Positions 1,217 through 36,244 of a stretch of 64,000 nucleotides of DNA are shown here, one piece after another (within the stretch, counting starts at the first letter, position 1; every line of letters begins with the position of its first letter). A program made the position numbers and the translations under genes. The notes under the pieces were generated by a model, which was given only the letters and a program-made list of their open reading frames with translations, did no database searches and had not been told where the DNA came from. The stretch is from NCBI GenBank assembly GCA_001816585.1, contig MHCJ01000003.1:220228-284227 (forward strand). Reading direction: 5' to 3'. This DNA is from Candidatus Chisholmbacteria bacterium RIFCSPHIGHO2_01_FULL_52_32 (GTDB lineage Bacteria; Patescibacteriota; Microgenomatia; UBA1400; Chisholmbacteraceae).

Positions 1217-1374
1217 TACAATACAAGTTAAAAGTTTAAAGTGAAAGGTTTAAAATTGCAATTCAAATAAGTTAAAAGTTTAAAGTGAAAGGTTTAAAGT
1301 TGCAATTAAGAATTTAAAGTTTTCATTTTGTATTGAAATTTTGAACTTTGAATTTTAAACTTTGCACTTTCTTA

Positions 1375-4283: not shown

Positions 4284-4410
4284 GTTCCAAATTTAAAGTT
4301 TAAAATTCAAAGTTAAAAGTTACAACTAATAAAATTAAAAGTTTCTCTCCTAACTTGTAACTTTAAACTGCAACTTTGAACTTTACACTTTACACTTTAA
4401 ACTTTTTTGA

Positions 4411-4441
4411 CCCTCAACCCTCAACCCTCAACCCTCAACCC
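4411..4441. repeat. (CCCTCAA)x4 heptamer microsatellite in the holB/pilB divergent intergenic region
   Basis: ccctcaaccctcaaccctcaaccctcaaccc read directly, preceded by an AAAGTT-rich AT spacer. Confidence 0.9.
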
Positions 4442-4496
4442 TTTTCTATACCCCTTTCTTGCCTTGACATTCTAGCATAAAGCTTCATAATTTTAT

Positions 4497-6320
4497 TTGA
4501 CACCGCCCTCCTTCTCGCCTGGCGTATTTGGTGGAATTTATCATATGCCCAATGACCCTGCCACTTCAGACAGTCCACGTTCGAAACCGTCCTCTGCCCC
4601 CTCGTCCATTCTGGATTTCCTGCTTCAGGTAAAGACGCTTACTAAAGAGCAGTATGACCAGATTCGGTTTGAGTCGGCTAGCGGAGGAAGAAGCCCTGAA
4701 GATTTGATGGTTGAAAAAAACTTGGTCGGTGAAGAGGCGTTGGCTCGGGCAAAGGCCTCGTTCTATAATGTCCCCTTTCTCGATTTAGAGCGGACGGCCG
4801 CTTCTCCGGAGGCGCTTGATAAACTTCCCGAAAGTGTTGCCAGTCGGTATAAAGCGCTCCCTTTTGAATATAACCAGAAGGACAATACGTTGTCCGTGGC
4901 AATGGCAAACCCACTGGACCTTGAGGCAATCGAGTTTATCGAAAAGAAGTCTGGCTGTCAGGTCATTCCGTTCATGGTTGTTGAATCGCAACTTACGTCC
5001 TTGATCGGAGACCTCTATGCCCAGAGCCTTTCTGTCGAGGTTACCGAGGCTTTAAAAGAGGCGGCTCCGGGAGAGGGAAAGGTTACGACAATTGATATTA
5101 CGAAACTCGGGGAGGTCATCCGCGAGGCACCGATTGCGAAGGTCGTGGCAACCTTACTTGAGTTTGCGATTAAAGCCCGGGCTTCAGATATCCATATTGA
5201 GCCTTTGGTGGATAGAACACGGGTACGATACCGGATTGATGGGATTCTGGTAGAGAAGCTCATATTGCCACGGCGTGTCCATAACGCGGTCGTCTCGCGG
5301 ATCAAGATACTTTCCGGAATGAAGATTGACGAGAAAAGACTCCCGCAGGACGGTCGTTTCAATTTCAAGATTGGGGAGGAAGAGGTTGATCTTCGGGTTT
5401 CCACCTTGCCGATCGTCCATGGAGAAAAGGTGGTAATGCGGTTACTGAAGAAAACCGGTCGCGTTCCGACTATGCCCGAGTTGGGTCTGCGCGGTATGGC
5501 CCTGAAGAACCTCCAGGAAGCGGTTCGGGTTCCCCACGGAATTATCCTGATCACCGGTCCGACAGGATCTGGGAAGACGACGACGTTGTATGCGATTCTC
5601 TCCAAACTGAATACTCCTCAAGTGAATATCATCACCCTTGAGGATCCGGTGGAATACGAAATGGCCGGGGTGAATCAGGTCCAGGTTAACCCGCTGGCTG
5701 GCTTAACCTTTGCCTCAGGGATGCGCAGCTTCCTTCGGCAGGACCCCAATATCATCATGGTCGGTGAGGTACGAGATACCGAGACCGCAGAGCTTGCCAT
5801 CCAGGCATCGCTGACCGGGCACTTGGTCTTCTCAACCTTGCATACGAACTCCGCCTCTGGGGCTCTCCCCCGGCTTTTGGATATGAAAGCCGAGCCTTTC
5901 TTGTTGGCATCCTCGATGACTTGCGTAATGGCCCAGCGGGTGGTTCGAAAAATTTGTGAACATTGCAAAGCTCCGATTTCCCCCCCGCCCGAGCTCGTTA
6001 CGGATATGAAGAAGGTTCTCGGTTCGTTGTATGACACGGTCAGATACGGTCAGGGAACGGGAGAAGGAGCTGTCACGCTGTACCGAGGAAAACACTGTGC
6101 TGAATGCGGCGATACCGGATACAGCGGCCGGGTTGGGATTTTTGAAGTGCTGCCGGTGTCGGAGCGGATCGGGCGGCTCATCTTGGAACGTGCACCGGCC
6201 AGTCGTATTGAGGAACAGGCAGTTTCCGAGGGTATGGTGTTGATGAAGCAGGACGGATATTTGAAGGCTTTGGAAGGAATTACTACAATAGAAGAAGTGC
6301 TTAGAGTTGCGGAGTCCTAG
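4497..6320 (+). CDS. pilB: type IV pilus assembly ATPase PilB (GspE family)
   Basis: 607 aa. N-terminal GspII-like domain, Walker A ITGPTGSGKTTTLYA, C-terminal tetra-Cys (CEHC...CAEC). First gene of the pilus locus. Confidence 0.9.
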   Translation: MTPPSFSPGVFGGIYHMPNDPATSDSPRSKPSSAPSSILDFLLQVKTLTKEQYDQIRFESASGGRSPEDLMVEKNLVGEEALARAKASFYNVPFLDLERTAASPEALDKLPESVASRYKALPFEYNQKDNTLSVAMANPLDLEAIEFIEKKSGCQVIPFMVVESQLTSLIGDLYAQSLSVEVTEALKEAAPGEGKVTTIDITKLGEVIREAPIAKVVATLLEFAIKARASDIHIEPLVDRTRVRYRIDGILVEKLILPRRVHNAVVSRIKILSGMKIDEKRLPQDGRFNFKIGEEEVDLRVSTLPIVHGEKVVMRLLKKTGRVPTMPELGLRGMALKNLQEAVRVPHGIILITGPTGSGKTTTLYAILSKLNTPQVNIITLEDPVEYEMAGVNQVQVNPLAGLTFASGMRSFLRQDPNIIMVGEVRDTETAELAIQASLTGHLVFSTLHTNSASGALPRLLDMKAEPFLLASSMTCVMAQRVVRKICEHCKAPISPPPELVTDMKKVLGSLYDTVRYGQGTGEGAVTLYRGKHCAECGDTGYSGRVGIFEVLPVSERIGRLILERAPASRIEEQAVSEGMVLMKQDGYLKALEGITTIEEVLRVAES

Positions 6321-6355: not shown

Positions 6356-7417
6356 ATGGATATTGTCAAGCTTCTTGAGAAAACGATTTCGGCTGCTGCC
6401 TCTGATTTACATATTGTTGTTGGTTTACCGCCAATGATCCGCGTTGAGGGAGAACTGTCTCCCGTCGAAGAGAGGCCGCTGACTGATGAAGAAACCCAGG
6501 AGATGGTCTTTTCGCTGCTTTCCCCGGAGCAAAAGGACCTCTTCTTAGTGAACCGAGAGCTCGATTTCTCCTATGACCATGAAGCGAAAGGGAGATTTCG
6601 GGTCAATGCCTACCACCAAAAAGGATTTGTTTCGGCCGCGCTGCGGCTCATCCCTTCCCAGATCCGGACCATTGAAGAGCTGAACCTTCCGAAGGTCCTC
6701 CATGATTTCGCCAAGCTCCGCCAGGGGTTTGTATTGGTCACCGGGCCTACCGGGCACGGTAAATCGACAACCTTGGCTGCGGTTATCCAGGAGATTAACG
6801 AGACTCAAGCCTCCCACATCGTGACCGTTGAAGACCCCATTGAATACGTCTACCCCATCGGAAGAAGCATCATTTCCCAGCGCGAGCTCCACTCGGATAC
6901 TCACTCTTGGGAAATTGCTCTCCGAAGTGCCCTTCGAGAAGACCCGGATGTGGTTTTGATCGGAGAAATGCGGGATTATGAAACCATCGCGGCAGCCCTC
7001 ACCATCGCTGAGACCGGCCACTTGGTTTTTGCGACCTTGCATACCAACAGCGCGGCCCAGACCATTGACCGGATTGTCGATGTGTTCCCCGAGCACCAGC
7101 AAGCGCAGGTCAAGATGCAGCTTTCAAACACGCTTGAAGCGGTGCTGTCCCAACGGCTCCTTCCTTCGGTAACCGGCGGAAGAATTCCCGTTGCAGAGAT
7201 TCTTTTGGCAAATGCGGCAGTCCGGACGACCATTCGTGAAGGAAAGACCCATCTTATCGATAACGTCATTCAAACTTCTGCCGACATCGGCATGAACACC
7301 TTGGAAACCAGCATGGCCTATTGGGTAAAGGCAGGGAAGCTTTCGCTTCAGGTTGCGACAGAGTGGGCGCTCCGGCCGGCTGAACTTCGGCGGCTGGTCC
7401 GTGGCGGAAAGGAGTAA
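6356..7417 (+). CDS. pilT: twitching-motility / pilus retraction ATPase PilT
   Basis: 353 aa. Walker A VTGPTGHGKSTTLAA and typical PilT size. Immediately downstream of pilB. Confidence 0.9.
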   Translation: MDIVKLLEKTISAAASDLHIVVGLPPMIRVEGELSPVEERPLTDEETQEMVFSLLSPEQKDLFLVNRELDFSYDHEAKGRFRVNAYHQKGFVSAALRLIPSQIRTIEELNLPKVLHDFAKLRQGFVLVTGPTGHGKSTTLAAVIQEINETQASHIVTVEDPIEYVYPIGRSIISQRELHSDTHSWEIALRSALREDPDVVLIGEMRDYETIAAALTIAETGHLVFATLHTNSAAQTIDRIVDVFPEHQQAQVKMQLSNTLEAVLSQRLLPSVTGGRIPVAEILLANAAVRTTIREGKTHLIDNVIQTSADIGMNTLETSMAYWVKAGKLSLQVATEWALRPAELRRLVRGGKE

Positions 7418-7447: not shown

Positions 7448-8656
7448 ATGGAGCAATTTCGGTATAAAGCAAAATCTCATGAGGGTGGAAAAGCACAAAG
7501 CGGAAAAGTTGAGGCACGTGACATTCGTCAGGCAGCCTCCATTCTTCGTGAAAGAGGCTTAGTGGTTGTTGGGCTTTCTCCGATCAGCCACCACATCCGC
7601 TTCACCTTCGTTTCCTCCTTTTTACATCGGGTGAAGTTTGTCGACATCGCTAATTTTACCCGTCAGCTGTCTACAATGATTACGGCAGGATTGCCGCTCA
7701 CGGACTCGTTGTCTCTGTTGGAAACCCAGGTTTCCCCCGGGCTTCAGACGATCGTTTCCGAAGTCCTGCGGGACGTCGAGGGTGGAAAGCCGCTCGGTGA
7801 GGCGCTCGAGAAGCACCCGCATGTATTTAACACGGTCTACGTTTCCTTGGTCCGGGCCGGGGAGGCGGCGGGAAAGCTTGATGAAATGCTCGCCAGACTT
7901 GCCGACAACCTTGAGAAAGAGAGGGAGTTCCGGGCGAAGACCAAAGGGGCAATGATCTACCCTCTTATCATTATTATCGGCATGATCATCGTCACGGCGG
8001 TCATGATGATTTTTGTGATTCCGAAGATGACTCAATTGTATGACGACTTTGGGGCGAAGTTACCCTTTGCCACTCTTCTTTTGGTGAATATCTCCAAATT
8101 CTTTTCCTCATTTTGGTATATTGTGCTTCTCATTGGGGTGGGGTCAAGTTGGATGTTTCGCCTTTGGCGTGCAACCCCCATAGGACGGCGATCGTTTGAT
8201 GAGTTTATCTTCCGCATACCGGTCTATGGGAACTTGCGCAGAGAGGTGTTGCTTGCAGAATTTTGTCGGACGCTGGGTTTGTTGGTGGGTGCGGGTGTTT
8301 CGATCGTTGAGGGATTGAATATCGTATCCGATACCTTGCCCAACCAGGTCTACGCCGATTCCGTGCGCGAGACCGCAAAAAGAGTCGAAAAAGGGCTTTC
8401 CGTTGCGGCAACAATCGCTTTGTATCCCCATTTCCCCCCTATTCTTTCGCAGATGCTTTCCGTCGGAGAGGAGACGGGAAAAATCGATGAGGTGTTATTG
8501 AAACTCGCCGTCTATTTTGAAACGGAATCGGAACACCTCATAAAAGGCTTGACAACCGCAATTGAGCCTCTTATCATGGTTTTCTTAGGCATCGGTGTCG
8601 GGTTTTTGGTCATCTCAGTGATCATGCCGATTTATAACCTCACCAGCCAAATGTAA
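7448..8656 (+). CDS. pilC: type IV pilus inner-membrane platform protein PilC (GspF family)
   Basis: 402 aa. Two GspF repeats with TM segments. Confidence 0.85.
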   Translation: MEQFRYKAKSHEGGKAQSGKVEARDIRQAASILRERGLVVVGLSPISHHIRFTFVSSFLHRVKFVDIANFTRQLSTMITAGLPLTDSLSLLETQVSPGLQTIVSEVLRDVEGGKPLGEALEKHPHVFNTVYVSLVRAGEAAGKLDEMLARLADNLEKEREFRAKTKGAMIYPLIIIIGMIIVTAVMMIFVIPKMTQLYDDFGAKLPFATLLLVNISKFFSSFWYIVLLIGVGSSWMFRLWRATPIGRRSFDEFIFRIPVYGNLRREVLLAEFCRTLGLLVGAGVSIVEGLNIVSDTLPNQVYADSVRETAKRVEKGLSVAATIALYPHFPPILSQMLSVGEETGKIDEVLLKLAVYFETESEHLIKGLTTAIEPLIMVFLGIGVGFLVISVIMPIYNLTSQM

Positions 8657-8775
8657 TAAAAGTTTAAAGTTCAAAGTTGAAGAGCCGAATTATCTCATGA
8701 CTGTTAACTTTTCATTTTTAACTTTTCACTTTTTTGCTGTCCAGAGAGGGGGTGAAAGGAAAAGCTACTTTCCTT

Positions 8776-9324
8776 ATGAAACTCAAACTCTCAAGAGGAT
8801 TTACCCTTATTGAGCTACTGATCGTCATTGCGGTGTTGGGAATCCTTGTGGTTGCCATCCTTTCCGCCCTTGATCCTTTAGAGCAATTACGCAAAGCGCG
8901 GGATGCCGGACGAAAATCCGATGCGGCTGAACTGTTGGCTGCTTACGAGCGGTACTACACCACCTACAACTGTTATCCTTGGGATACCGGTGCACCGACC
9001 TGTACGGCAAGTGTCCTTCGGTCATCGGCGGTAAACCCAGATTTTGCCGTTGCGGGAGCTGATTACCGTCTGATCACTCAAGGTGAGATGAAAGCCCAGT
9101 TTGCCAACCGGCGAACCGTGGTAGCGACCACGCCGGCAAACCAAAGACTTTATGTCAGTGAAGCAGCCGGGAGACAAGTTTCCGTCTGTTTTGAGCCCGA
9201 GTCAGGATCTGCGAGAACCGCTGGTGCGCAGGGACCGCTTCGGAACAACACGAACAGTGCGACGGCGGTCTGCGGAGCGGGAGCGTATCCAAGTACGACC
9301 TGCTATATCTGCGTACCGCAATAA
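8776..9324 (+). CDS. type IV major pilin paralog 1 (GspG-like; prepilin leader, N-methylation domain)
   Basis: Preferred start MKLKLSRGFTLIELLIVIAVLGIL (ATG 8776); the track ORF starts upstream at 8734. Prepilin peptidase site G|FTLIEL, C-terminal Cys pairs. Its 5' ~245 nt plus ~30 nt of leader are nucleotide-identical to paralog 2. Confidence 0.8.
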   Translation: MKLKLSRGFTLIELLIVIAVLGILVVAILSALDPLEQLRKARDAGRKSDAAELLAAYERYYTTYNCYPWDTGAPTCTASVLRSSAVNPDFAVAGADYRLITQGEMKAQFANRRTVVATTPANQRLYVSEAAGRQVSVCFEPESGSARTAGAQGPLRNNTNSATAVCGAGAYPSTTCYICVPQ

Positions 9325-9433: not shown

Positions 9434-9988
9434 ATGAAACTCAAACTCTCAAGAGGATTTACCCTTATTGAGCTACTGATCGTCATTGCGGTGTTGGGAA
9501 TCCTTGTGGTTGCCATCCTTTCCGCCCTTGATCCTTTAGAGCAATTACGCAAAGCGCGGGATGCCGGACGAAAATCCGATGCGGCTGAACTGTTGGCTGC
9601 TTACGAGCGGTACTACACCACCTACAACTGTTATCCTTGGGATACCGGTGCACCGACCTGTACGGCGGTTGTCAACAGAGCTGTGGCTGTCAATCCGAAC
9701 TTTGCCGTGGCCGGTGATGATTACCGTCTGATCACTCAAGGTGAGATGAAAGCCCAGTTTGCAAACCGGCGGACTGTGATAGCCACGACGCCCGCTGCAG
9801 AGCGGTTGTTTGTGAGCGAAATTGCCGCTACGCGACAAGCTTCAGTCTGTTTTGAGCCCGAATCCGGATCGGCGAGAAACGCGGGTGCCCAAGGACCATT
9901 GCGCACCAATACGAATGCGCCGGATGCGGACAACCTCTGCACCGGGACGTATCCGAACGCATCTTGCTTTATCTGCGTTCCGCAGTAA
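9434..9988 (+). CDS. type IV major pilin paralog 2
   Basis: MKLKLSRGFTLIELLIVIAVLGIL... The N-terminal 78 aa are identical to paralog 1. The C-terminal half is divergent but retains identical internal patches (DYRLITQGEMKAQFANRRTV) and Cys pairs. Confidence 0.85.
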   Translation: MKLKLSRGFTLIELLIVIAVLGILVVAILSALDPLEQLRKARDAGRKSDAAELLAAYERYYTTYNCYPWDTGAPTCTAVVNRAVAVNPNFAVAGDDYRLITQGEMKAQFANRRTVIATTPAAERLFVSEIAATRQASVCFEPESGSARNAGAQGPLRTNTNAPDADNLCTGTYPNASCFICVPQ

Positions 9989-10024: not shown

Positions 10025-10840
10025 ATGATTGGTACGATGATCATCGGAGCTGTCTCGGTTTTTTTATTCGGTTTGGCTATAGGGAGTTTTCTTAACGTTG
10101 TTATCTATCGAACCATCCATGGGGAGAGCCCGTTTGAGGGCCGCAGCCGTTGTCCTCATTGTAAAAAAACCATTCGGGCAATCGACAACATTCCCCTTCT
10201 CTCCTTTCTTTTTCTCGGCGGCCGGTGCAGATACTGCAAGACGAAGATCTCCTGGACCTACCCGGTCATTGAATTGTTGACCGGGGTTCTATTTGTCTGG
10301 TGGTGGCTGGGCGGTTCGCTTTTCTTTAAACTGACCGCTGCCCCGTTTGTTTACCTTCAACCGTTGTTTTGGCTTACGGTGGGGACACTCCTTCTTTCCC
10401 TGTTTTTTACCGATTTTCTCTACGGTATCCTCCCTGATATTCTGGTCGGCGTATTGGGAGTATTGGCCCTGGCGTACCGAGTGCTATTGACCTATACAGG
10501 AATCATGCAGTGGCCCGATTTTTGGTATTCTATCGCAAGCGGAATCGGCGCTTCACTGTTTTTCTTTGCCCTCCACGCATTAACCCGCGGGCGCGGGATG
10601 GGCATGGGCGATGTGAAGCTTGGTTTGGCCTTCGGAATCCTTTTGGGGTGGCCGAGGACACTTGTAGCGGTGTTTGCCAGTTTTGTCAGCGGGGCTCTGG
10701 TCGGGGTGTGGTTACTTGCGAGCGGTCGTCGGCAGTTTGGTCAGACTATTCCATTCGGTCCGTTTCTTGTTCTCGGGACGATGGTTTCTCTCCTTTGGGG
10801 CGGGGCACTTTGGAGTTGGTATATGGGGATGATATTCTAG
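10025..10840 (+). CDS. pilD: prepilin peptidase / N-methyltransferase PilD (A24 family)
   Basis: 271 aa. N-terminal CPHC...CRYC zinc-binding tetrad, multi-TM, catalytic Asp motif GMGDVKL. Confidence 0.85.
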   Translation: MIGTMIIGAVSVFLFGLAIGSFLNVVIYRTIHGESPFEGRSRCPHCKKTIRAIDNIPLLSFLFLGGRCRYCKTKISWTYPVIELLTGVLFVWWWLGGSLFFKLTAAPFVYLQPLFWLTVGTLLLSLFFTDFLYGILPDILVGVLGVLALAYRVLLTYTGIMQWPDFWYSIASGIGASLFFFALHALTRGRGMGMGDVKLGLAFGILLGWPRTLVAVFASFVSGALVGVWLLASGRRQFGQTIPFGPFLVLGTMVSLLWGGALWSWYMGMIF

Positions 10841-11038
10841 TTAAAAGTTAAAAGTTAAAAGTTAAAAGTTTCAGAGTGAACAGAAAACAGTTAAAAGTGG
10901 AAAGTGAGAAGTTGAAAACGCCCATTTTAAACGAGCGACGGTAACTTTGAACTTTGAATTGTAATTTAAACTTTTCATTTTTTATTTTTAACTTGTTCCT
11001 GTTGACAGGATTTAGGGAGGCTGTCATACTTTTTTTGA

Positions 11039-11437
11039 ATGCGAAAAAACAGGGGATTTACGATCATCGAGCTTCTGGTGGCTTTGACGATCGTTGCCAT
11101 CATCACCGCTCTGGCGGTGGCAAGCTATACCTCCGCCAGACGAAATAGCCGGAATGCCAAGCGGCGGGGCGACATGGTCGCACTTCAGCAGGCGTTCGAA
11201 CAGTATTATCTTTCGAACCAGACCTACGCAACTCCCTGCTCGACTATGGCAACGGGATATTTACAAGGTTCCTTCCCCGCGGAAACGCTCGTCGGTTGGA
11301 ACGCGTACGCGCAAAACTGTACGGCTACGACGTACTGCGTTTGTGCACGTTTGGAGGGCGGAGGAGGCGGAAATGCGTCGAACAGCACGTGTACGTTCGG
11401 AACGGGGGAATATTTTTGCGTTGCGAACCAACAGTAA
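11039..11437 (+). CDS. type IV pilin / pseudopilin (N-methyl domain)
   Basis: MRKNRGFTIIELLVALTIVAIITALAVASY prepilin N-terminus. Cys-rich C-terminal domain. Confidence 0.8.
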   Translation: MRKNRGFTIIELLVALTIVAIITALAVASYTSARRNSRNAKRRGDMVALQQAFEQYYLSNQTYATPCSTMATGYLQGSFPAETLVGWNAYAQNCTATTYCVCARLEGGGGGNASNSTCTFGTGEYFCVANQQ

Positions 11438-11500: not shown

Positions 11501-11526
11501 CTAAACCCTAAACCCTAAACCCTAAG
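11501..11526. repeat. (CCCTAAA)x3 heptamer array
   Basis: ctaaaccctaaaccctaaaccctaag read directly; upstream of the minor-pilin block. Confidence 0.9.
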
Positions 11527-11538: not shown

Positions 11539-11979
11539 ATGACTATAAACCAAAGACTGAAGACCAGCGACCAACATGAATCGTCTGGTTTTACCCTGAT
11601 TGAGCTCCTGGTGGCTGTTGCCATCTTTGCGATTTTGACCGCGCTCGCAGTGGTGAGCTACACTTCGGCGAACCGAAGGGCGCGGGATGGGCGACGACGG
11701 TCGGATTTGGAGCAGGTGAGAACTGCCCTTGAGATCTATCGGGCGGATAACACCAGTTATCCGGTCGGGACAAACTTCACGACCATGGTGAATACCTTGG
11801 TCGCGGGAAATTATCTGTCTACAGCCCCAACCGATCCCCGGGGATACGGCTACTACTACAATTCCGCGACCGGGGTTGATTACTACGTTTGTGGCTACCT
11901 TGAAACGGGTGGTCCTGCCAATTGTGGCGCGAACTGTGCTGCTCCCGGAAACTGTAATTATCGAGTGGATAGCCCATGA
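11539..11979 (+). CDS. GspG-like pseudopilin
   Basis: GFTLIELLVAVAIFAILTALAVVSY N-terminus. TAPTDPRGYGYYYN resembles the GspG PTDPWG motif. Confidence 0.8.
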   Translation: MTINQRLKTSDQHESSGFTLIELLVAVAIFAILTALAVVSYTSANRRARDGRRRSDLEQVRTALEIYRADNTSYPVGTNFTTMVNTLVAGNYLSTAPTDPRGYGYYYNSATGVDYYVCGYLETGGPANCGANCAAPGNCNYRVDSP

Positions 11980-12989
11980 AACAAGTTAAAAGTTTAAAGT
12001 TAAAAGTTAAAAGTTCTTCATTCGGCTTTACGCTGATTGAGATTATGGTTGCGGTGATGGTGATCAGCTTCATGTCCGGAGGAGGAGTGGCAGCGTATCG
12101 ACGCTTAAATGATCGGGCCCTGGTCGAAGGCGCAGCCAAACAAGTCGAGCAGGCGCTGCGGGAGACGCAGAAACGGGCTTCTTCAGGAGTGAAGCCAACG
12201 GGGTGCAGCGGAGCGTTGGCCTCGTATTCGATCTCAATGGGCGGGGCGCTCGGTGAGGATCGATATTCGATTCAAGCTGACTGCGCGACGACCGATCCTG
12301 CGGCGGAAACGTTTGATCTCCCAACCGGCACCCGTTTTCCACTGGAAAAAAGAGTCAGTTTCCCGGCTTTGGGAAAGGGGGCAACTCCGGAAACGATATG
12401 GGTGCAGAATGACTCGCAGCAGATTACGTATGAACTCCGTGTCAGTCAGGGTGGGTCCCTGAGCGGTTTGGGGCAGGCAGAGGGAGCCGTGCCAACCCCG
12501 ACGCCGACACCGATCCCGGAGGCGGCAAACTTGGTTCCCAACCCGGGCTTTGAGATAGGCTCGCCTGCCTCCTGGGGTACGAGTTCCTCCGGATGCAGTA
12601 TCACCCCAACCTATCAATGGACCTCCACTACAAAGCATAGCGGGACGTATGCGGTGGGGATTAAATATACCGGAGCTGTGGGCTGCACGGCTCAATATCA
12701 GACCTCATCGACTGCGGCCCCTGTTATTGCGGGGTCATCGTATTACTTCTCCGGTTGGATCAAAGCCTCGGGAGTGGTGAACAAGGCATTTCTTCGGGTC
12801 AGTTTTTACAACTCCTCTGGGTTGCTTATTACGAGCGTGAACTCGGCTTCGCAGGTGGGAACGACGTCCTGGACCCAGGTAACACAAACCATGAGTGCTC
12901 CGTCCGGTGCTGTGTCGGCGCGTATTCATGTCCGCCTGCTTGACGCCGGAACAGCGTACTTCGATGATCTCATGTTCGCCAAGCTCTAA
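11976..12989 (+). CDS. minor pilin with C-terminal carbohydrate-binding-module-like beta-sandwich domain
   Basis: Start overlaps the previous gene stop (ATGA). Prepilin-like N-terminus FGFTLIEIMVAVMVISF, a PTPTPTPIPE linker, then LVPNPGFEIGS...W...YFDDLMFAKL, resembling CBM4/9-type sugar-binding modules. Confidence 0.7.
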   Translation: MKQVKSLKLKVKSSSFGFTLIEIMVAVMVISFMSGGGVAAYRRLNDRALVEGAAKQVEQALRETQKRASSGVKPTGCSGALASYSISMGGALGEDRYSIQADCATTDPAAETFDLPTGTRFPLEKRVSFPALGKGATPETIWVQNDSQQITYELRVSQGGSLSGLGQAEGAVPTPTPTPIPEAANLVPNPGFEIGSPASWGTSSSGCSITPTYQWTSTTKHSGTYAVGIKYTGAVGCTAQYQTSSTAAPVIAGSSYYFSGWIKASGVVNKAFLRVSFYNSSGLLITSVNSASQVGTTSWTQVTQTMSAPSGAVSARIHVRLLDAGTAYFDDLMFAKL

Positions 12990-12996: not shown

Positions 12997-13461
12997 ATGC
13001 TTCGGAAAAATGGTCAAACCATGGTTGAGATGTTGGTTGCGGTGGCCATCGTTGTGTTGGTGTTGGTTGCGGTGGTATCAAGGGTGGTGGCAGCGGTCGC
13101 GAGTGCGAATTTTGCCAGGAATCAAGCCCTTTCCACCCGATTTTCCCAGGAAGGCCTTGAATGGGCGCGTTCCCAACGGGACTCGCTCGGTTGGGCCGGT
13201 TTTTCACCCTATGTCTCAAGCAGTCCTACTTACTGCGTTCCTGATCTTACGCAGGGAATCGGTTCGCTGACTTCCGGGAGTTGTTTGACAACCGCGACAA
13301 TTCCCGGGACGATCTTTTTACGCGAGGTGAGATTTATCTACGTTGCTCCCGGAGGTCAAGAGCCCTATACCGATATTATTTCAACCGTTTCTTGGAGAGA
13401 TCGGGTCGGGTGGCATCGTTCTACTCTCGCGACCCGATTAACACGGTGGAGCACACAATAA
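12997..13461 (+). CDS. pseudopilin (minor pilin)
   Basis: Preferred start MLRKNGQTMVEMLVAVAIVVLVLVAV at ATG 12997; the track ORF 12895 would overlap the previous gene. Hydrophobic prepilin-like N-terminus. Confidence 0.65.
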   Translation: MLRKNGQTMVEMLVAVAIVVLVLVAVVSRVVAAVASANFARNQALSTRFSQEGLEWARSQRDSLGWAGFSPYVSSSPTYCVPDLTQGIGSLTSGSCLTTATIPGTIFLREVRFIYVAPGGQEPYTDIISTVSWRDRVGWHRSTLATRLTRWSTQ

Positions 13462-13466: not shown

Positions 13467-13997
13467 ATGGGGAAAATTTCTGAACGCGGCTATACGATGA
13501 TGGAACTGATTATGGTCGTGGGGATTGTTGCCCTGCTGTCCTTGACTGCCACTGCCCTTCTCTTGGCGAGTCTTTCCGGAACCGGAAAGGCATCTGCCTT
13601 GGCGGTGGTCAAGCAAAATGGGGACTTTGCAATTGGGGTTATCGAACGTCTAGTTCGGGATGGCATGGGGGTTTCTTGTACTACCGTCGCAGGATTTGAC
13701 GAACTTACGGTGACCGATGCCAACGGAACGACGACTTTTAAAGTCGAGAATGACACGTCTCTCGTGCCTGCAGTTCCCCGAATTGCATCCAATTCGGCCA
13801 GTTTTCCGCAAAACTATTTAACCAGTGAGAAAATCCAGGCCTCAAACTTTCAATGCACGCATGCCGCCGGTTCGGATGGCGTCCCTGACGTCGTTTTCGC
13901 CTCTTTTCACCTCACTGTCGGTAATCCCGGCGTGGATCGACCTTCGGATGTCGCACAGGATACGTTTGAGACCCGGGTATCCCTGCGAACCTACTAG
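13467..13997 (+). CDS. pseudopilin (minor pilin)
   Basis: Preferred start MGKISERGYTMMELIMVVGIVALLSL at ATG 13467; the track ORF starts at 13281. Confidence 0.65.
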   Translation: MGKISERGYTMMELIMVVGIVALLSLTATALLLASLSGTGKASALAVVKQNGDFAIGVIERLVRDGMGVSCTTVAGFDELTVTDANGTTTFKVENDTSLVPAVPRIASNSASFPQNYLTSEKIQASNFQCTHAAGSDGVPDVVFASFHLTVGNPGVDRPSDVAQDTFETRVSLRTY

Positions 13998-14010: not shown

Positions 14011-14110
14011 AGGGTATAGCGTATAGGGTTTAGGGTTTAGGGTATAGGGTATAGGACAGAAGGCAGAGGACAGAAGACAGAGAAAAGAAAACAGAGAACA
14101 GAGAAACAGA
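14011..14110. repeat. (TTTAGGG/TATAGGG)n heptamer array followed by an (ACAGAR)n purine-rich repeat
   Basis: agggtatagcgtatagggtttagggtttagggtatagggtatagg, then acagaaggcagaggacagaagacagagaaaagaaaacagagaacagagaaacagac. The heptamers are the reverse complement of the CCCTAAA array at 11501. Confidence 0.9.
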
Positions 14111-14190
14111 CATTCTTTCACAAGCGTTTGCCCTTCACGTTCACTTCTCGTCGGTTGACACGATCAGCGGCATGCGGCTACAATGGATCT

Positions 14191-14964
14191 ATGAAGCGGA
14201 GCTTTTCCTGGCAGTATGGAAGAGGTCAAAGCGGTCAGGTTGGTATTGTTATCCTTCTTTTGACTGTAGTTCTGTTGACGATCGGACTTTCGATTGCCTC
14301 CCGTACCATTACCGATGTTCGTCTTTCGCGTCAGGAAGAGGAAAGCTCGCGGGCATTTAACGCGGCAGAGGCCGGGATTGAGGAAGCGCTTCGGCTAAAC
14401 CTGTCCGCATTGATCGCAGCCGGCGGGGCGGGGTCTGTGACGGTTGGCGGAATTACGGCAAATTATCGAGTGGCTGAAGAAAACACGCTTGAGACCCAGA
14501 TTGATGAAGGTGAGACTATCGAGGTGAATGTCGCAGGACTCGGAAGCGGCAACCAGGTTTCCATCGATTGGGCGCGGGATACTTGTCCGTCCGCCGCATC
14601 CGTTGTGGTTGCGGTGTACAACGGGACTTCGACAACCATCCGAAGGACTCCTTATCAGGGTTGCCCCCGAGGTGATAACTTTGCTTCATCGAGTCCTGGC
14701 GTGGATGGGTACCAATTCCGCACAATTGTTTCCCTTGCGAATGGCGACCAGTTCATTCGGGTCCGTGCCGTGTATGCCGGGACCCAGTTGCGTGTGTTGG
14801 GTGCCGGAGGTACGGCTTTGCCCGTCCAGTTTTGGCGAATCCGCTCGGAAGCACAGACCCTTGGAGGAGAGACACGCTCGGTTGAGGTTACTCAAACTCC
14901 CCCTGCTCCTCCGTCCATTTTCGACTTTGTCATTTTTTCAGGGAGCTCTCTAACGAAACCATAG
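14191..14964 (+). CDS. PilX-like minor pilin
   Basis: Preferred start MKRSFSWQYGRGQSGQVGIVILLLTVVLLTIGLSIA at ATG 14191 (track ORF 14128). Single N-terminal TM, then a predicted extracellular domain. Confidence 0.55.
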   Translation: MKRSFSWQYGRGQSGQVGIVILLLTVVLLTIGLSIASRTITDVRLSRQEEESSRAFNAAEAGIEEALRLNLSALIAAGGAGSVTVGGITANYRVAEENTLETQIDEGETIEVNVAGLGSGNQVSIDWARDTCPSAASVVVAVYNGTSTTIRRTPYQGCPRGDNFASSSPGVDGYQFRTIVSLANGDQFIRVRAVYAGTQLRVLGAGGTALPVQFWRIRSEAQTLGGETRSVEVTQTPPAPPSIFDFVIFSGSSLTKP

Positions 14965-14968: not shown

Positions 14969-16000
14969 TTGCCCATGGCGCGCCTCATTGGTCTTGACCT
15001 TGGAAGTTTTTCCATCAAAGTTGTCTGTCTGTCGAAACACGGAAAGGGGTATCGACTTGAGGCAATTGGTATCGCTCTCAACCCCTATGGTGCGAGGCCC
15101 GGCGGTGATGACGCAAGTCAGGTAAAGGTCGCCGAGGCGGTAAAAAAACTTCTTTCAGATACCCGACTGTCCTCTGCCAAGGCAATGCTGGCGCTCCCGG
15201 AATCCTCGGTGTATACCAGAGTGGTTGAGATGCCTTCCCTCTCCGATTCCGAACTCGCTTCCGCGATCCACTGGGAGGCTGAGCAATACGTTCCTGTCCC
15301 TTTGGATCAAGTCAATATTGATTACGAAGTGATATCCCGACCCGATAAGAGTAGCGAGAAAGAAAAGATGGAGATATTTTTGGTGGCGGCGCCGAAAACG
15401 GTCGTCTCAAGAACCGTCGAATTTGCCTCAAAGTGCGGTATTGAAGTGGTGGGATTGGAAACCGAGATGGTGTCGCTGGCGCGGGTGATGGTTCCTGAAG
15501 ATCAAGGACTCGGGCCAACAATGCTGATTTCTCTCGGGGCGTCAAGTACGAACCTGGCTGTGGTACGGGACGGAATGCTCGTTCTGACGCACTCCATTGA
15601 ATCCGGCGGAACGGCTCTGACGCGTGCGATCGCAACCGAGTTTGGACTGGATTTTCCCCAGGCTGAGGAGTACAAGCGAAGTTATGGTCTTGAGCCAACC
15701 CAGCTTGAGGGCAAGGTGCGGAACGCGTTGCTGCCTTTGGTTGATCGACTCCTTTCTGACGTGCGAAAGGCCATCCAATACTACAATTCCTCCAACCAGG
15801 AAGCCCCGATTAAACGAGCGGTTCTGGCGGGGGGAACGGCGCTTCTTCCAGGACTCGTGTCTTATGCTGCGGTGAACTTTGGTATGGAGGTTGTAATGGG
15901 AAATGCGTTTTCATTCGTTGAACCGTCTGCCAACGCCGCAATTCCTCAAGATACGGTTTCTTTTGGTACTGCAGTGGGGCTCGCGATGCGCGTCTTATGA
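14969..16000 (+). CDS. pilM: type IV pilus assembly protein PilM (actin-like ATPase fold)
   Basis: 343 aa. N-terminus LIGLDLGSFSIKVV, typical of PilM/FtsA-like proteins. Followed by PilN/PilO-like genes. Confidence 0.8.
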   Translation: MPMARLIGLDLGSFSIKVVCLSKHGKGYRLEAIGIALNPYGARPGGDDASQVKVAEAVKKLLSDTRLSSAKAMLALPESSVYTRVVEMPSLSDSELASAIHWEAEQYVPVPLDQVNIDYEVISRPDKSSEKEKMEIFLVAAPKTVVSRTVEFASKCGIEVVGLETEMVSLARVMVPEDQGLGPTMLISLGASSTNLAVVRDGMLVLTHSIESGGTALTRAIATEFGLDFPQAEEYKRSYGLEPTQLEGKVRNALLPLVDRLLSDVRKAIQYYNSSNQEAPIKRAVLAGGTALLPGLVSYAAVNFGMEVVMGNAFSFVEPSANAAIPQDTVSFGTAVGLAMRVL

Positions 16001-16545
16001 ATATATCAATTAACCTTCTTAAGGAGTCTCAACATCTTCAAGCCCGTTTGCGCCGCATGGGGCTTATGCTTCAGACAGGGAGCCTGGTCGTCTTAGTCGC
16101 TTTTGCCGCGGTGGTTTTTTTTACCATAAGCTATCTCGTTTGGTCTCAGACACAGGCTAACCGGCTAAATTCGGATATCGACCAAGCCAAGGTGAGCATT
16201 GAGGAAATGCGACCCCGGGAATCCAAGCTGTTGTATGTGAAGCAGAAGCTTTCCTTTGCCACGCGCGTTCTTGGCGAACCGGGTCTGCGGCACGATTTAG
16301 CAACCGAGCTTTACCGGATTGCTGAAGGAGAAGTCGAGGTTTCGCATATGACGATCAGCGGGGGAGATGAGGCGTTCAGGGTTGAAGCTCAAGCCTCCGA
16401 CGTTTTTTCTCTGGTCCGTTTGCTTGATTTAGTTATGACTTTTGCCGGTGAGAACGAGATAAACCGGATATCCGGAGAGAGCTTTACCCGCACGGAAGAG
16501 GGAGGCTACCAATTTTCCGTTTTGCTGGCTCTGGGAGGCGAGTGA
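15997..16545 (+). CDS. pilN: PilN-like bitopic membrane protein
   Basis: 182 aa. Short cytoplasmic N-terminus, one TM (LVVLVAFAAVVFFTISYLVW), coiled-coil periplasmic part. Start overlaps the pilM stop. Confidence 0.5.
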   Translation: MNISINLLKESQHLQARLRRMGLMLQTGSLVVLVAFAAVVFFTISYLVWSQTQANRLNSDIDQAKVSIEEMRPRESKLLYVKQKLSFATRVLGEPGLRHDLATELYRIAEGEVEVSHMTISGGDEAFRVEAQASDVFSLVRLLDLVMTFAGENEINRISGESFTRTEEGGYQFSVLLALGGE

Positions 16546-17375
16546 TGAAAATCGAATTTCCTTCACAAATTTCATTTCGACACTTACTTCAGATTAAGAA
16601 GTATGTCTACTTTCCGCTCATCACGCTGGTGGTGGTGTCGGCTCTGTTGGTTTTTGTGATCATCCCGACGTTTCGAAATTTGACCTTGCTCAGATCGGAA
16701 ATTTCACGGAGAAAGGAGATACAAAGAGGGCTCGAGATGAAGATTGAAATCCTTCGGGGTCTTGATGAAGCTCGTCTGCTTGAACAGGTGGAGACGCTCG
16801 AGAAGGCGATTCCCAGCCGAAAAGATGTATTCTTACTCCTCACTTCTCTCAATGGGTTGGCCTCTCAGACGGGGGTGGCTTTGGGGAGCTTTTCACTTAG
16901 CCCCGGAAGTCTGGCTACCGGGGCAGCAACGGGCTCCGCCACCAGCCAACCGGATAGACCTGCGGAAACCGGTTCGGGCAGGGCCGCCGCTTCCTCACAG
17001 CTTGCCTCAATAGAGGTCGGCATTGAAGTACTAGGCCCTTTTGAGGGAGTCCAGATGTTTCTTTCCGGTTTGGAACATGTTGTTCCTCTCATGAGGCTGA
17101 CCTCTGTGGATCTCGCACCCGCGACTTTAGAAACCCCCGTTTTCGCTTCTACATCCTCGGCTTTCCCTTTGGTTTCGGATATCACCGCAAACGCAATCCT
17201 TGGAATGTTTTACGCTCCTCTCCCGACCGAGCTCGGGGCCGTTACCGATCCCATTGAGACTCCTTCCGAAACTGAACAGGGGGTATACGAACAGCTACTT
17301 TCCTTTACTTCATTTCCGGCTTCTTCATCCGCCAACATTCCGACCGGCCGGGAGGATGTCTTTGCGCCGTTCTAA
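16542..17375 (+). CDS. pilO: PilO-like bitopic membrane protein
   Basis: 277 aa. One TM then coiled coil, Ser/Ala-rich linker. Start overlaps the pilN stop. Confidence 0.45.
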   Translation: MMKIEFPSQISFRHLLQIKKYVYFPLITLVVVSALLVFVIIPTFRNLTLLRSEISRRKEIQRGLEMKIEILRGLDEARLLEQVETLEKAIPSRKDVFLLLTSLNGLASQTGVALGSFSLSPGSLATGAATGSATSQPDRPAETGSGRAAASSQLASIEVGIEVLGPFEGVQMFLSGLEHVVPLMRLTSVDLAPATLETPVFASTSSAFPLVSDITANAILGMFYAPLPTELGAVTDPIETPSETEQGVYEQLLSFTSFPASSSANIPTGREDVFAPF

Positions 17376-17440
17376 AAATAAAGAATAAAGAGTAAAGATT
17401 AAAGAGTAAGGAGTAAAGAATAAAGAAAAAAGACTTCGTA
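17376..17440. repeat. (RTAAAGA)n tandem repeat in the convergent pilO/khpA spacer
   Basis: aataaagaataaagagtaaagattaaagagtaaggagtaaagaataaagaaaaaag. Confidence 0.85.
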
Positions 17441-19528: not shown

Positions 19529-19622
19529 AAGATTAAAGGATAAAGATTAAATATTAAAGAATAAAGACGAACAGCTCACAACTTAACACTAATGACTATT
19601 AGCTAATGGCTAATAGCTAATT

Positions 19623-24877: not shown

Positions 24878-25196
24878 AATAACTGAAGTATATACAATAG
24901 TTACTGATGTGTCAATAGTCCATTTTCGCCACCTATGATATCGGCACGGGACTAGAGGGAGTAGAACAGGGGTAGGAGGGAGGTTGCAACCAGGGCCAAG
25001 CTTGCGATGGCAACCAGGATAGTCCAGATTCGTTTATGGCGTTTGGAGAGGAGCACAGGAATAAATGTAAAATTTAAAATTCAAAGTTAAAAGTTACCGT
25101 GTAAGGTTAAAAGCTTGCGGAGTAACTTTCAATTTTGAACTGCATTTTTTCATTATTACCTTTTCATTTTGAACTTTTTATCCTATCCCCTACTGC

Positions 25197-33143: not shown

Positions 33144-33219
33144 ACAACAAGTTAAAAGTTAAAAATGAAAAGTGAAAAGTTAAAAAGCAAGGTAATAATA
33201 TTTGAATTTTAAATTTGTT

Positions 33220-36168: not shown

Positions 36169-36244
36169 TGGTGACCGCTGGTGGGCTCGAACCACCGACC
36201 TTCACGATGTCAACGTGACGCTCTGCCGACTGAGCTAAGCGGTC
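36169..36244 (-). tRNA. tRNA-Val (anticodon GAC), CCA encoded
   Basis: Reverse complement folds as GACCGCT/AGCGGTC acceptor, GCTC..GAGC D-stem, TCACG/CGTGA anticodon stem with loop TTGACAT, GGTGG/CCACC T-stem, TTCGAGC T-loop. Confidence 0.85.

What the first reader, a model, noticed from the sequence alone, without database searches (positions are those of the whole stretch)
11976..12989. Minor pilin fused via a PT-linker to a carbohydrate-binding-module-like beta-sandwich domain
N-terminus FGFTLIEIMVAVMVISF is a prepilin-type assembly domain. After a PTPTPTPIPE linker the C-terminal ~150 aa (LVPNPGFEIGSPASWGTSS...GTYAVGIKYTG...YFSGWIKASG...YFDDLMFAKL) has the spacing of aromatic and Gly residues seen in CBM4/9-type sugar-binding modules. 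This is a candidate tip adhesin that would let the pilus bind host or substrate glycans. Its start overlaps the previous pilin stop (ATGA), so it is co-translated with the pilin set.
Basis: partly seen in the sequence, partly recalled or inferred. Interest (0 to 1): 0.55.

Follow-up and report, generated by a model that had tools for sequence, protein, structure and literature searches.

The report
Pilus subunit carrying a sugar-binding module
In the type IV pilus operon of an ultrasmall groundwater bacterium (Candidatus Chisholmbacteria), one minor pilus subunit has a sugar-binding-type domain tethered to its end, probably to stick the pilus to cell-surface or environmental polysaccharides; it is a real example of an already catalogued design ("modular pilins"), not a new kind of system.

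Summary
ORF 11976-12989 (+) encodes a 337-aa protein with three parts. First comes a prepilin leader and pilin module (Pfam N_methyl above cutoff; G17|F18, E+5). Then a Pro/Thr linker (172-182). Last is a beta-sandwich that passes the Pfam CBM_4_9 gathering score. That domain matches solved CBM16/70/61/4/22 modules by profile (E 1e-11) and by predicted fold (TM 0.80 to CBM16).

The gene sits in a complete retractile type IV pilus operon, in the H position of an H-I-J-K-like minor-pilin set. Its ATG overlaps the upstream stop (ATGA). The pilin module aligns over its whole length only with H-class pilins (E. coli PpdA, 94.7% probability).

The window comes from Candidatus Chisholmbacteria (CPR). 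The protein is already in UniProt as a "CBM-cenC domain-containing protein". The pilin + CenC-like CBM architecture is listed (7 proteins) in a 2021 survey of modular pilins. Lectin-like minor pilins have been reported in cultured Saccharibacteria.

Close orthologues at the same operon position lack the CBM or carry other modules, so it is a lineage-specific add-on. Glycan binding, the ligand and tip location are inferred, not shown.

Verdict: new member of a known kind; modest interest.

The parts
11976..12989 (+). Whole gene: modular minor pilin (337 aa + stop). Identical to OGY18322.1 / UniRef100_A0A1G1VSF1.
11976..12026 (+). Prepilin leader peptide (residues 1-17, ends in Gly17). The ATG overlaps the TGA of the upstream pilin gene (ATGA).
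   Evidence: Pfam N_methyl
11983..12015 (+). Heptanucleotide tandem array (AAGTTAA x4.7) inside the leader-coding region. A different heptamer array sits at the same place in orthologue L001.
12027..12488 (+). Mature pilin module (residues 18-171). Hydrophobic alpha1 helix with Glu+5 (predicted helix 20-70), then seven beta strands. Cys77 and Cys103 are invariant in the family. H-class (PpdA/GspH/FimU-like).
12489..12521 (+). Pro/Thr linker VPTPTPTPIPE (residues 172-182). Predicted disordered (pLDDT < 50 for residues 170-181).
12525..12986 (+). CBM_4_9-superfamily beta-jelly-roll module (residues 184-337). NLVPNPGFE...W start motif and AYFDDL end motif. Cys207 and Cys237 are both conserved in the orthologue.
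4497..6320 (+). PilB-type extension ATPase (T2SSE + MshEN domains)
6356..7417 (+). PilT-type retraction ATPase
7448..8656 (+). PilC platform protein (T2SSF)
8776..9324 (+). Candidate major pilin, copy 1 (ORF listed from TTG 8734; ATG at 8776)
9434..9988 (+). Candidate major pilin, copy 2 (tandem duplicate with a diverged C-terminal half)
10025..10840 (+). PilD prepilin peptidase (A24_N_bact + Peptidase_A24)
11039..11437 (+). Small pilin (132 aa) with a sub-threshold ComP_DUS-like match
11539..11979 (+). GspG-like pilin (146 aa; Pfam T2SSG above cutoff). Its stop overlaps the target's start.
12997..13461 (+). I-like minor pilin (155 aa from ATG 12997; weak GspI/PilV matches; Glu+5 present)
13467..13997 (+). 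J-position minor pilin (176 aa from ATG 13467; prepilin motif GYTMME)
14128..14964 (+). K/PilX-like minor pilin (PilX_N above cutoff). It lacks Glu+5 (GQ|VGIVIL). The probable start is ATG 14191.
14969..17375 (+). PilM (14969-16000), PilN-position gene (15997-16545) and PilO-like gene (16542-17375)

Best explanation
The gene encodes a modular type IV minor pilin. SHOWN: it has a class III (prepilin) signal, and a pilin module that belongs to a CPR family of H-class (PpdA/GspH/FimU-like) minor pilins. An 11-residue Pro/Thr tether predicted to be disordered follows, then a C-terminal beta-jelly-roll of the CBM_4_9 superfamily. The gene lies in a complete PilB/PilT/PilC/PilD/PilMNO operon, directly upstream of I-, J- and K-like minor pilins. 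INFERRED mechanism: PilD cleaves after Gly17. The pilin module joins the I-J-K-like subunits in the priming complex, which ends up at the pilus tip, with H linking that complex to the major pilin. The CBM hangs off the side of this tip complex on its flexible tether and binds a polysaccharide. For an episymbiotic CPR cell the most likely target is a cell-wall or capsule glycan of a host bacterium; environmental polysaccharide is the alternative. PilT-driven retraction then pulls the cell onto the bound surface. The same pilin scaffold occurs without the module or with other modules in close relatives, so the module probably sets binding specificity and is not needed for pilus assembly.
For: Domains: Pfam N_methyl and CBM_4_9 both score above their gathering cutoffs.
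CBM homology: the domain profile matches solved, ligand-validated CBMs. These are CBM16 2zex (E 1e-11), CBM70 4d0q (2e-10), CBM61 2xom (6e-9), CBM4 1gui (6e-7) and CBM22 1dyo (6e-6).
Fold: the AF2 model has mean pLDDT 89.3, with both domains mostly above 90 and the linker below 50. Foldseek against PDB gives probability 1.00 to CBM16 (TMt 0.80), CBM4-2, CBM22, CBM61 and CBM70, and to the same module in phage tailspikes and fibres, including 5w6h, 8iq9 and mycobacteriophage Douge gp20. Foldseek against BFVD returns phage tail fibre and minor tail proteins.
H-class: hhalign of the 34-member pilin family against E. coli PpdA gives 94.7% probability over 140 columns, and against GspH 83% over 77 columns. 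GspG, GspI, GspJ and PpdB align only over the N-terminal helix. PpdA and GspH are the top NCBIfam matches in 34/34 and 33/34 family members.
Operon: PilB, PilT, PilC, PilD, PilM and a PilO-like gene are present. The downstream genes are I-like, J-position and a PilX_N protein lacking Glu5.
Add-on nature: syntenic loci L002, L003 and L004 carry a 173-197-aa orthologue with no CBM. Other family members carry Cys-rich modules after a PT linker.
Precedent: S. sanguinis PilC is a modular pilin whose lectin module binds glycans and is modelled at the tip (PMC9934059). Modular pilins, including the IPR012902-IPR003305 architecture, are catalogued in PMC8179133. Saccharibacteria have lectin-like minor pilins and glycan-dependent host binding (PMC11623550).
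Against: No binding data exist for this protein or for any close relative. In the profile alignment, the sugar-contacting residues of the best solved match (CBM16-1; I identify them from memory of the literature as W20, Q121 and W125) align with non-aromatic residues. Identity to any solved CBM is only about 18%. So neither a ligand nor glycan binding itself is proven. The nearest sequence relatives of the module (36-41% identity) sit in large surface proteins with Ig, CARDB or DUF11 domains. None of the ten proteins I scanned has a glycoside hydrolase domain. All H-class matches are below the curated family cutoffs. Foldseek of the pilin module alone found no PDB match. Tip location is inferred from other systems. 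Whether this organism is an episymbiont is unknown.
Confidence: 0.6

Rival explanations
1. The beta-sandwich is displayed on the pilus but binds a non-carbohydrate ligand such as a protein receptor, or acts mainly as a structural spacer or shield. Pfam 'CBM_4_9' would then describe the fold and not the function.
For: The closest relatives are in non-enzymatic surface proteins (Ig, CARDB, DUF11, LTD) and not in glycoside hydrolases. The CBM16-1 binding residues are not conserved in the alignment. The Pfam score is only 3.5-6 bits above the cutoff.
Against: Every solved module that matches significantly is either a validated polysaccharide binder (CBM16, 70, 61, 4, 22) or part of a phage tailspike or tail fibre. 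Tailspikes and fibres of this kind generally recognise surface polysaccharides (general knowledge). Published modular pilins with lectin-type modules bind glycans.
Confidence: 0.2
2. The module binds the cell's own envelope, its own pilin glycans or matrix polysaccharide. It would then mediate auto-aggregation or biofilm formation, or anchor the filament, and not host or substrate recognition.
For: The same CBM family is widely used in Microgenomates cell-surface proteins: signal peptide + CBM + PT linker + LTD + C-terminal anchor, e.g. the Roizmanbacteria P0005 cluster. The Saccharibacteria preprint reports predicted O-glycosylation sites on pilins (PMC11623550).
Against: No evidence here for self-glycans. 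The module is absent from close orthologues with an otherwise identical operon. That pattern fits a variable, target-specific function better than a housekeeping one.
Confidence: 0.1
3. The locus builds a short pseudopilus for secretion or DNA uptake, not an adhesive pilus. The CBM-pilin would then be a periplasmic or wall-embedded component, for example docking the machine to the cell wall.
For: The pilin matches are to T2SS pseudopilins and Com pilins as much as to T4P pilins. The first pilin after PilD has a near-threshold ComP_DUS-like match (25.5 bits against a cutoff of 27.3).
Against: A PilT retraction ATPase, a PilM/N/O-type alignment set and two 183-184-aa major-pilin candidates are present, and none of the proteins I scanned matched a T2SS-specific component (GspC/L/M or a secretin). 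A module on a flexible PT tether is the design used for display. DNA uptake and adhesion are not mutually exclusive.
Confidence: 0.07

Closest known systems
Modular type IV pilins of Streptococcus sanguinis: PilC (pilin + concanavalin-A-like lectin module) and PilB (pilin + vWA module). Sources: PMC9934059, PMC8179133.
   Same: An N-terminal pilin module with a class III signal is joined by a short linker to a bulky C-terminal binding module. It is a minor pilin encoded with the other minor pilins. PilC's module is a beta-sandwich lectin shown to bind glycans, and the complex is modelled at the pilus tip.
   Different: The module family differs: CBM_4_9 / CenC-like here, ConA-like lectin plus an Ig-like module in PilC. 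The pilin scaffold here is H-class within a four-member H-I-J-K-like set, whereas S. sanguinis has a reduced PilA/B/C set. The organism is a CPR bacterium. There are no experimental data here.
InterPro architecture IPR012902 - IPR003305 (prepilin N-terminal motif + 'Carbohydrate-binding, CenC-like'), listed in Dataset S1 of Raynaud et al. 2021 (PMC8179133).
   Same: It is the same two-signature architecture, and the dataset counts 7 proteins with it. UniProt already names this very protein 'CBM-cenC domain-containing protein'. That IPR003305 is the InterPro entry for Pfam PF02018 is my own knowledge. It is consistent with the UniProt and BFVD names seen.
   Different: The dataset text held here gives only counts, and neither this accession nor Chisholmbacteria is named in it. 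No member of this architecture has been studied. At least two unrelated pilin scaffolds carry the module: H-class here, and a scaffold that matches the H-class query only over its N-terminal helix (GspG-like by eye) in Woesebacteria P0022/P0179.
Lectin-like minor pilins PilX1 (beta-jelly-roll) and PilX2 (beta-propeller) of the Saccharibacterium Nanosynbacter lyticus TM7x (preprint PMC11623550).
   Different: In TM7x the module is on the large PilX-type subunit, which lacks a predicted PilD signal, and it is not detectable by sequence-domain searches. Here it is on the H-class subunit with a canonical signal and is recognised by Pfam. The phylum differs too (Microgenomates group versus Saccharibacteria).
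CBM16-1 of Caldanaerobius polysaccharolyticus ManA (2ZEX/2ZEY/3OEA) and the related CBM4, CBM22, CBM61 and CBM70 modules.
   Same: They share the beta-jelly-roll fold (TM 0.80) and the N-terminal NPGFE..W and C-terminal DD motifs. The profile E-value is 1e-11.
   Different: Identity is about 18%. The module is appended to a pilin, not to a glycoside hydrolase or lyase. The CBM16-1 ligand-contact residues are not conserved in the alignment (using residue identities from memory). No CAZy family can be assigned.
Receptor-binding modules of phage tailspikes and tail fibres (CBA120 TSP4 5W6H, Klebsiella K2-2 tailspike 8IQ9, mycobacteriophage Douge central fibre gp20 8ZDO).
   Same: These are the best structural matches (E 3e-9, rmsd 2.1-2.6 A over about 158 residues). 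gp20 is also the best direct sequence hit in the PDB (E 2e-4). Both are distal modules on a filament that contacts another cell's surface.
   Different: They are carried on trimeric phage fibres, not on a pilin. No evidence of recent transfer: GC content is unremarkable and identity is only 14-22%.

Membership tests
Type IV pilin / class III signal peptide proteins (Pfam PF07963 N_methyl) | Short hydrophilic leader ending in Gly, then Phe/Met +1, Glu +5 and about 20 hydrophobic residues | tested here: met
   MKQVKSLKLKVKSSSFG|FTLIEIMVAVMVISF. N_methyl scores 23.6 bits against a cutoff of 21.2. TIGR02532 scores 20.0 against 16.3.
Type IV pilin / class III signal peptide proteins (Pfam PF07963 N_methyl) | Lollipop fold: a long N-terminal alpha helix packed on a beta sheet | tested here: met
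   AF2 predicts helix 20-70 followed by 7 strands, with pLDDT mostly above 90.
Type IV pilin / class III signal peptide proteins (Pfam PF07963 N_methyl) | A dedicated prepilin peptidase and assembly machinery encoded nearby | tested here: met
   PilD 10025-10840, PilB, PilT, PilC, PilM and a PilO-like gene are in the same operon.
H-class minor pilins (GspH / FimU / PpdA / ComGD) | Sequence match to curated H-class models at or above their cutoffs | tested here: not met
   TIGR01708 GspH scores 24.5-26.3 bits (cutoff 80). PRK10506 PpdA scores 30-31 bits (cutoff 158). Pfam GspH is matched by only 5 of 34 family members, best E 2.8e-4.
H-class minor pilins (GspH / FimU / PpdA / ComGD) | Homology extending through the globular domain to H-class pilins but not to G, I or J classes | tested here: met
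   hhalign of family A4: PpdA 94.7% probability over 140 columns, GspH 83% over 77 columns. GspG (24 columns), GspI (20), GspJ (32) and PpdB (37) match only the N-terminal helix. PpdA and GspH rank first in 34/34 and 33/34 members. That PpdA is the H-equivalent of the E. coli ppdA-ppdB-ygdB-ppdC set is my own knowledge.
H-class minor pilins (GspH / FimU / PpdA / ComGD) | Gene order H-I-J-K with a K-type cap lacking Glu5 | tested here: met
   The target is followed by 12997 (weak GspI/PilV matches), 13467 (prepilin motif) and 14128 (PilX_N 25.7 bits against a cutoff of 25.5; no Glu+5). The I and J assignments themselves are weak.
H-class minor pilins (GspH / FimU / PpdA / ComGD) | Structural similarity to solved GspH/FimU structures | tested here: inconclusive
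Pfam CBM_4_9 (PF02018) / beta-jelly-roll CBM superfamily | Match to the family model above the gathering score | tested here: met
   29.4 bits in the whole protein and 31.9 bits for the domain alone, against a cutoff of 25.9. Profile positions 1-131 of 136 are covered.
Pfam CBM_4_9 (PF02018) / beta-jelly-roll CBM superfamily | Beta-sandwich fold superposable on solved CBMs | tested here: met
   Foldseek probability 1.00. TMt is 0.75-0.80 to CBM16 and 0.59-0.71 to CBM4-2, 22, 61 and 70 and a porphyran-binding CBM. Profile hmmsearch against PDB gives E 1e-11 to 6e-6.
Pfam CBM_4_9 (PF02018) / beta-jelly-roll CBM superfamily | Conservation of the ligand-contact residues of the closest solved member (CBM16-1) | tested here: not met
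   In the HMM alignment the positions of CBM16-1 W20, Q121 and W125 align with Ser, Ile/His and Arg/Leu-type residues in the window protein. The residue roles are recalled from the CBM16 literature, and the alignment is at about 18% identity, so this is a weak negative.
Pfam CBM_4_9 (PF02018) / beta-jelly-roll CBM superfamily | Demonstrated carbohydrate binding | not testable with these tools
   Needs purified protein and glycan arrays, ITC or polysaccharide pull-downs.
Modular pilins (as defined by Raynaud et al. 2021) | [quoted passage not shown] | tested here: met
   Pilin module 18-171, PT linker 172-182 and CBM 184-337. CBM-less orthologues end exactly where the linker starts. The IPR012902-IPR003305 architecture is listed with 7 proteins.
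Modular pilins (as defined by Raynaud et al. 2021) | The module is presented by the filament and has a direct role in a pilus function | not testable with these tools
   Requires localisation and binding experiments.

The most novel reading that the evidence does not exclude
The H-position minor pilin of Microgenomates-type CPR pili is a swap site for receptor-binding modules that set host or substrate range, much as phage fibres swap receptor-binding domains. Members carry a CBM here, unrelated Cys-rich modules in relatives, or no module. In the CBM-bearing lineage, expression may also be phase-variable. A heptanucleotide tandem array lies inside the leader-peptide coding region of both CBM-pilin orthologues, with a different unit sequence but the same position. 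Gain or loss of one 7-nt unit by slippage would frameshift the gene, as with the pentamer repeats in the leader-coding region of Neisseria opa genes (own knowledge).
Probability: 0.12. Interest if true: 0.65.

Novelty: new member of a known kind. Interest (0 to 1): 0.3.

Why it matters
CPR/Patescibacteria are thought to live attached to other microbes, and how they recognise partners is largely unknown outside cultured Saccharibacteria. This gene gives a concrete candidate for a glycan-recognition module on the pilus of an uncultured Microgenomates-group lineage that can be expressed and tested. The comparison with CBM-less and other-module orthologues suggests that the H-class minor pilin is a variable specificity-carrying position. 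The design principle and this exact domain architecture are already catalogued, and the protein is already domain-annotated in UniProt. The value is therefore as a well-documented example and a target for binding studies, not as a new concept.

Tried and rejected
1. Assembly or frameshift artefact fusing two genes. Rejected: identical protein in two MAG records and on 13 contigs, plus a 62%-identical full-length orthologue with the same synteny.

2. Word-indexed homologue search with the C-terminal domain alone. It returned only a fragment. The profile search and the exhaustive search were needed.

4. Recent horizontal acquisition of the CBM. There is no GC anomaly across the CBM-coding part (0.53-0.59 against 0.50-0.58 in the neighbours). 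No second CBM copy exists in the window that could have been a donor.

5. Naming a ligand from the nearest solved CBM.

6. Phase variation at the leader heptamer array. Two metagenome scans for array-length variants found nothing, including the gene itself. The known copies are all in frame at 337 aa. The idea is untested, not refuted.

7. Species-genome scan for the pilin family. It found only two loci, both CPR and both without a CBM, so distribution figures rest mainly on the protein searches.

8. Hairpin formed by the inverted heptamer arrays between pilD and the first minor pilin. The fold is not significantly more stable than shuffles (z = -1.75).
Full report
OBSERVATION

- The N-terminus reads MKQVKSLKLKVKSSSFG|FTLIEIMVAVMVISF, with Gly-1, Phe+1 and Glu+5. 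Pfam N_methyl scores 23.6 bits against a gathering score of 21.2.
- The linker VPTPTPTPIPE is residues 172-182.
- Residues 184-337 hit Pfam CBM_4_9 over almost the full model. The score is 29.4 bits in the whole protein and 31.9 bits for the domain alone, against a gathering score of 25.9.
- The start codon overlaps the stop of the upstream pilin gene as ATGA. The same overlap is present in the orthologue.
- The fusion is real. The identical protein is recorded from two Candidatus Chisholmbacteria MAG entries (OGY18322.1, OGY20307.1; UniRef100_A0A1G1VSF1) and on 13 contigs, the longest 1.16 Mb. A 62%-identical, full-length orthologue (P0002) comes from an independent assembly with the same downstream genes.

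THE C-TERMINAL DOMAIN

A profile of the domain and its relatives matches solved, ligand-validated carbohydrate-binding modules:
- CBM16 (2ZEX and others), E 1e-11
- CBM70 hyaluronan-binding module (4D0Q), 2e-10
- CBM61 (2XOM), 6e-9
- CBM4 (1GUI), 6e-7
- CBM22 (1DYO), 6e-6

AlphaFold2 with a 29-row alignment gives a confident model (mean pLDDT 89.3). It shows two well-defined domains and a linker with pLDDT below 50 at residues 170-181. The overall pTM of 0.51 fits two domains with no fixed mutual orientation.

Foldseek against the PDB returns the same CBM families at probability 1.00 (TM 0.80 to CBM16). It also returns the equivalent module in phage tailspikes and fibres: CBA120 TSP4, Klebsiella K2-2 tailspike and mycobacteriophage Douge central fibre gp20. 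gp20 is also the best direct sequence hit in the PDB. Foldseek against BFVD and the PHROG matches again point mostly to phage tail fibre and minor tail proteins.

The domain is therefore a bona fide member of the CBM_4_9 beta-jelly-roll superfamily. Three cautions apply:
- Identity to any solved CBM is about 18%.
- The residues that I recall as the sugar contacts of CBM16-1 align with non-aromatic residues here.
- The nearest sequence relatives (36-41% identity) are modules of large surface proteins with Ig-like, CARDB or DUF11 domains, and of Microgenomates proteins with a signal peptide, CBM, PT linker and lamin-tail domain. They are not glycoside hydrolases.

No CAZy family and no ligand can be assigned.

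THE PILIN MODULE AND ITS CONTEXT

The window encodes a complete type IV pilus operon:
- PilB (4497-6320), PilT (6356-7417) and PilC (7448-8656)
- two tandem candidate major pilins (8776-9324 and 9434-9988)
- PilD (10025-10840)
- pilins at 11039 and 11539, then the target
- three more pilin-like genes (12997, 13467, 14128)
- PilM, a PilN-position gene and a PilO-like gene

The pilin module belongs to a family that the exhaustive search recovers mainly as 155-180-aa proteins. An alignment of 34 members has invariant Glu+5, Cys77, Cys103 and Gly160, and it ends just where the window protein's linker begins.

Curated H-class models are the top matches in 34/34 (PpdA) and 33/34 (GspH) members, but always far below their cutoffs. 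hhalign separates the classes:
- The family aligns with E. coli PpdA over 140 columns (94.7% probability).
- It aligns with GspH over 77 columns (83%).
- GspG, GspI, GspJ and PpdB align only over the shared N-terminal helix.

The downstream genes fit an H-I-J-K order. The first has weak GspI/PilV matches. The second has a prepilin motif. The third is a PilX_N protein lacking Glu+5.

I therefore treat the target as the H-class subunit of a core minor-pilin set. Two caveats remain. The curated thresholds are not met. Foldseek of the isolated module found nothing in the PDB, where I believe most pilin crystal structures lack the N-terminal part of the helix.

DISTRIBUTION

Syntenic operons from other CPR genomes have, at the same position, 173-197-aa orthologues with 39-46% identity and no extension. 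These are L002, L003 (Patescibacteria B55T1B8) and L004 (another Chisholmbacteria). Two relatives at 63-64% identity (P0006, P0007) are 159 and 161 aa long and end like the CBM-less members. They come from short contigs of 2.0 and 1.2 kb.

About ten of the roughly fifty pilin-family proteins visible in the top 150 of the exhaustive search carry a C-terminal extension after a Pro/Thr-rich stretch. Apart from P0002 these are Cys-rich repeats or small Cys-rich domains unknown to Pfam, or low-complexity tails. The CBM is therefore a lineage-specific add-on to a conserved scaffold.

A second pilin-CBM_4_9 fusion exists in Woesebacteria (P0022/P0179). It is also inside a pilus operon, but on a different pilin module. 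That module matches the H-class query only over the N-terminal helix and looks GspG-like by eye. P0060 may be a third case: its C-terminal domain matched the window's module by phmmer, but it does not reach Pfam CBM_4_9. The module seems to have been grafted onto pilins more than once.

There is no GC anomaly over the CBM-coding part and no second copy in the window.

MECHANISM

Shown: the domain composition, the operon and the add-on nature of the module.

Inferred from established knowledge of type IV filaments, as summarised in PMC9934059:
- PilD processes the prepilin.
- The H subunit joins I-J-K in the priming complex, which ends up at the tip, with H contacting the major pilin.
- The CBM, on an 11-residue flexible tether, projects from the side of this complex and binds a polysaccharide.
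- PilT retraction then draws the cell to the bound surface.

The most likely target for a CPR cell is a host cell-wall or capsular glycan. This follows the analogy with Saccharibacteria, where host binding depends on host cell-wall polysaccharide and the minor pilins carry lectin-like domains (PMC11623550). It also fits the phage tailspikes and fibres that use the same fold. Environmental polysaccharide is the alternative.

Rival readings are given in the rivals section with what would refute each: a non-glycan ligand, binding to the cell's own glycans, and a pseudopilus role.

COMPARISON WITH WHAT IS KNOWN, AND NOVELTY

- The design is that of the modular pilins defined from S. sanguinis PilB and PilC. 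PilC's lectin module binds glycans and is modelled at the tip.
- The 2021 survey of InterPro lists 264 modular-pilin architectures in more than 1,200 proteins, many from CPR. Among them is IPR012902-IPR003305 with 7 proteins. To my knowledge IPR003305 is the CenC-like CBM entry that integrates PF02018.
- UniProt already calls this protein a CBM-cenC domain-containing protein.
- No paper in the library discusses this protein or Chisholmbacteria pili.

What this analysis adds:
- the H-class assignment of the scaffold
- the demonstration that the module is an add-on missing from syntenic orthologues
- the alternative modules on the same scaffold
- the structural link to phage receptor-binding modules

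That makes it a new member of a known kind. Interest is modest (0.3).

SIDE OBSERVATIONS

Heptanucleotide tandem arrays fill many intergenic spacers of the window. One array (AAGTTAA x4.7, 11983-12015) lies inside the target's leader-coding region. The orthologue in L001 has a different heptamer array (TTTCAAA x4.4) at the same place, and it is one of only two tandem repeats in that 6-kb locus. L002 has a two-copy remnant. Seven is not a multiple of three, so slippage would frameshift the gene. I could not find length variants, so phase variation is only a low-probability speculative reading.

Noticed in passing
window 1225-1370, 4289-4442, 8654-8733, 10839-10996, 11501-11525, 14011-14110, 17373-17433, 19529-19621, 25068-25178, 33149-33185, 45023-45066: Tandem arrays of 7-nt units (also scored as period 14 or 21) occupy many intergenic spacers. 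The unit sequences differ (AAGTTAA, ACCCTCA, CTAAACC, AGGGTAT, CAGAGAA, TAAAGAA and others), and an array is often followed by its inverted unit. AAAAGTTAAAAGTT with at most 1 mismatch occurs 16 times against 0.05 expected. They resemble the cyanobacterial STRR heptamer repeats (own knowledge). The hairpin formed by the 10836-11000 pair is not significantly more stable than shuffles (z = -1.75).
   Followed up: partly
window 11983-12015; L001 223-253; L002 4622-4636: A heptamer array lies inside the leader-peptide coding region of the CBM-pilin gene. A different heptamer array is at the same position in the orthologue L001, and a 2-copy remnant is in the CBM-less orthologue L002. This may be a slipped-strand phase-variation site. 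No length variants were found.
   Followed up: partly
window 8776-9324 and 9434-9988: Tandem duplication of the candidate major pilin gene. The first 247 nt, including upstream sequence, are 99% identical, and the C-terminal halves have diverged to 76-85% (protein sequences). Related loci L002-L005 have a single pilin gene between pilC and pilD.
   Followed up: partly
window 11039-11437: The first pilin after PilD (132 aa) has a near-threshold match to the ComP_DUS DNA-receptor minor pilin family (25.5 bits against a cutoff of 27.3). It is a possible DNA-binding pilin, relevant to DNA uptake by CPR pili.
   Followed up: no
proteins P0080, P0208, P0077, P0081, P0082, P0103 (relatives from the exhaustive search): The same H-class CPR pilin scaffold carries other C-terminal modules after a Pro/Thr linker. 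These are four tandem Cys-rich repeats of about 45 aa (P0080), a duplicated Cys-rich module (P0208), and Cys-rich domains of about 60-80 aa (P0077, P0081, P0082, P0103). The four that were scanned (P0080, P0208, P0082, P0077) matched only N_methyl in Pfam; P0081 and P0103 were not scanned.
   Followed up: partly
window 36169-49607: There are fifteen tRNA genes within about 13 kb. They include a tight cluster of six at 40742-41351 on the minus strand.
   Followed up: no
proteins P0005-P0021 (Roizmanbacteria and relatives): A family of Microgenomates surface proteins has this layout: signal peptide, the same CBM subfamily, a PT linker, a lamin-tail domain (PF00932) and a hydrophobic C-terminus. 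It is the closest CPR relative of the pilin's CBM found by the word-indexed search.
   Followed up: no
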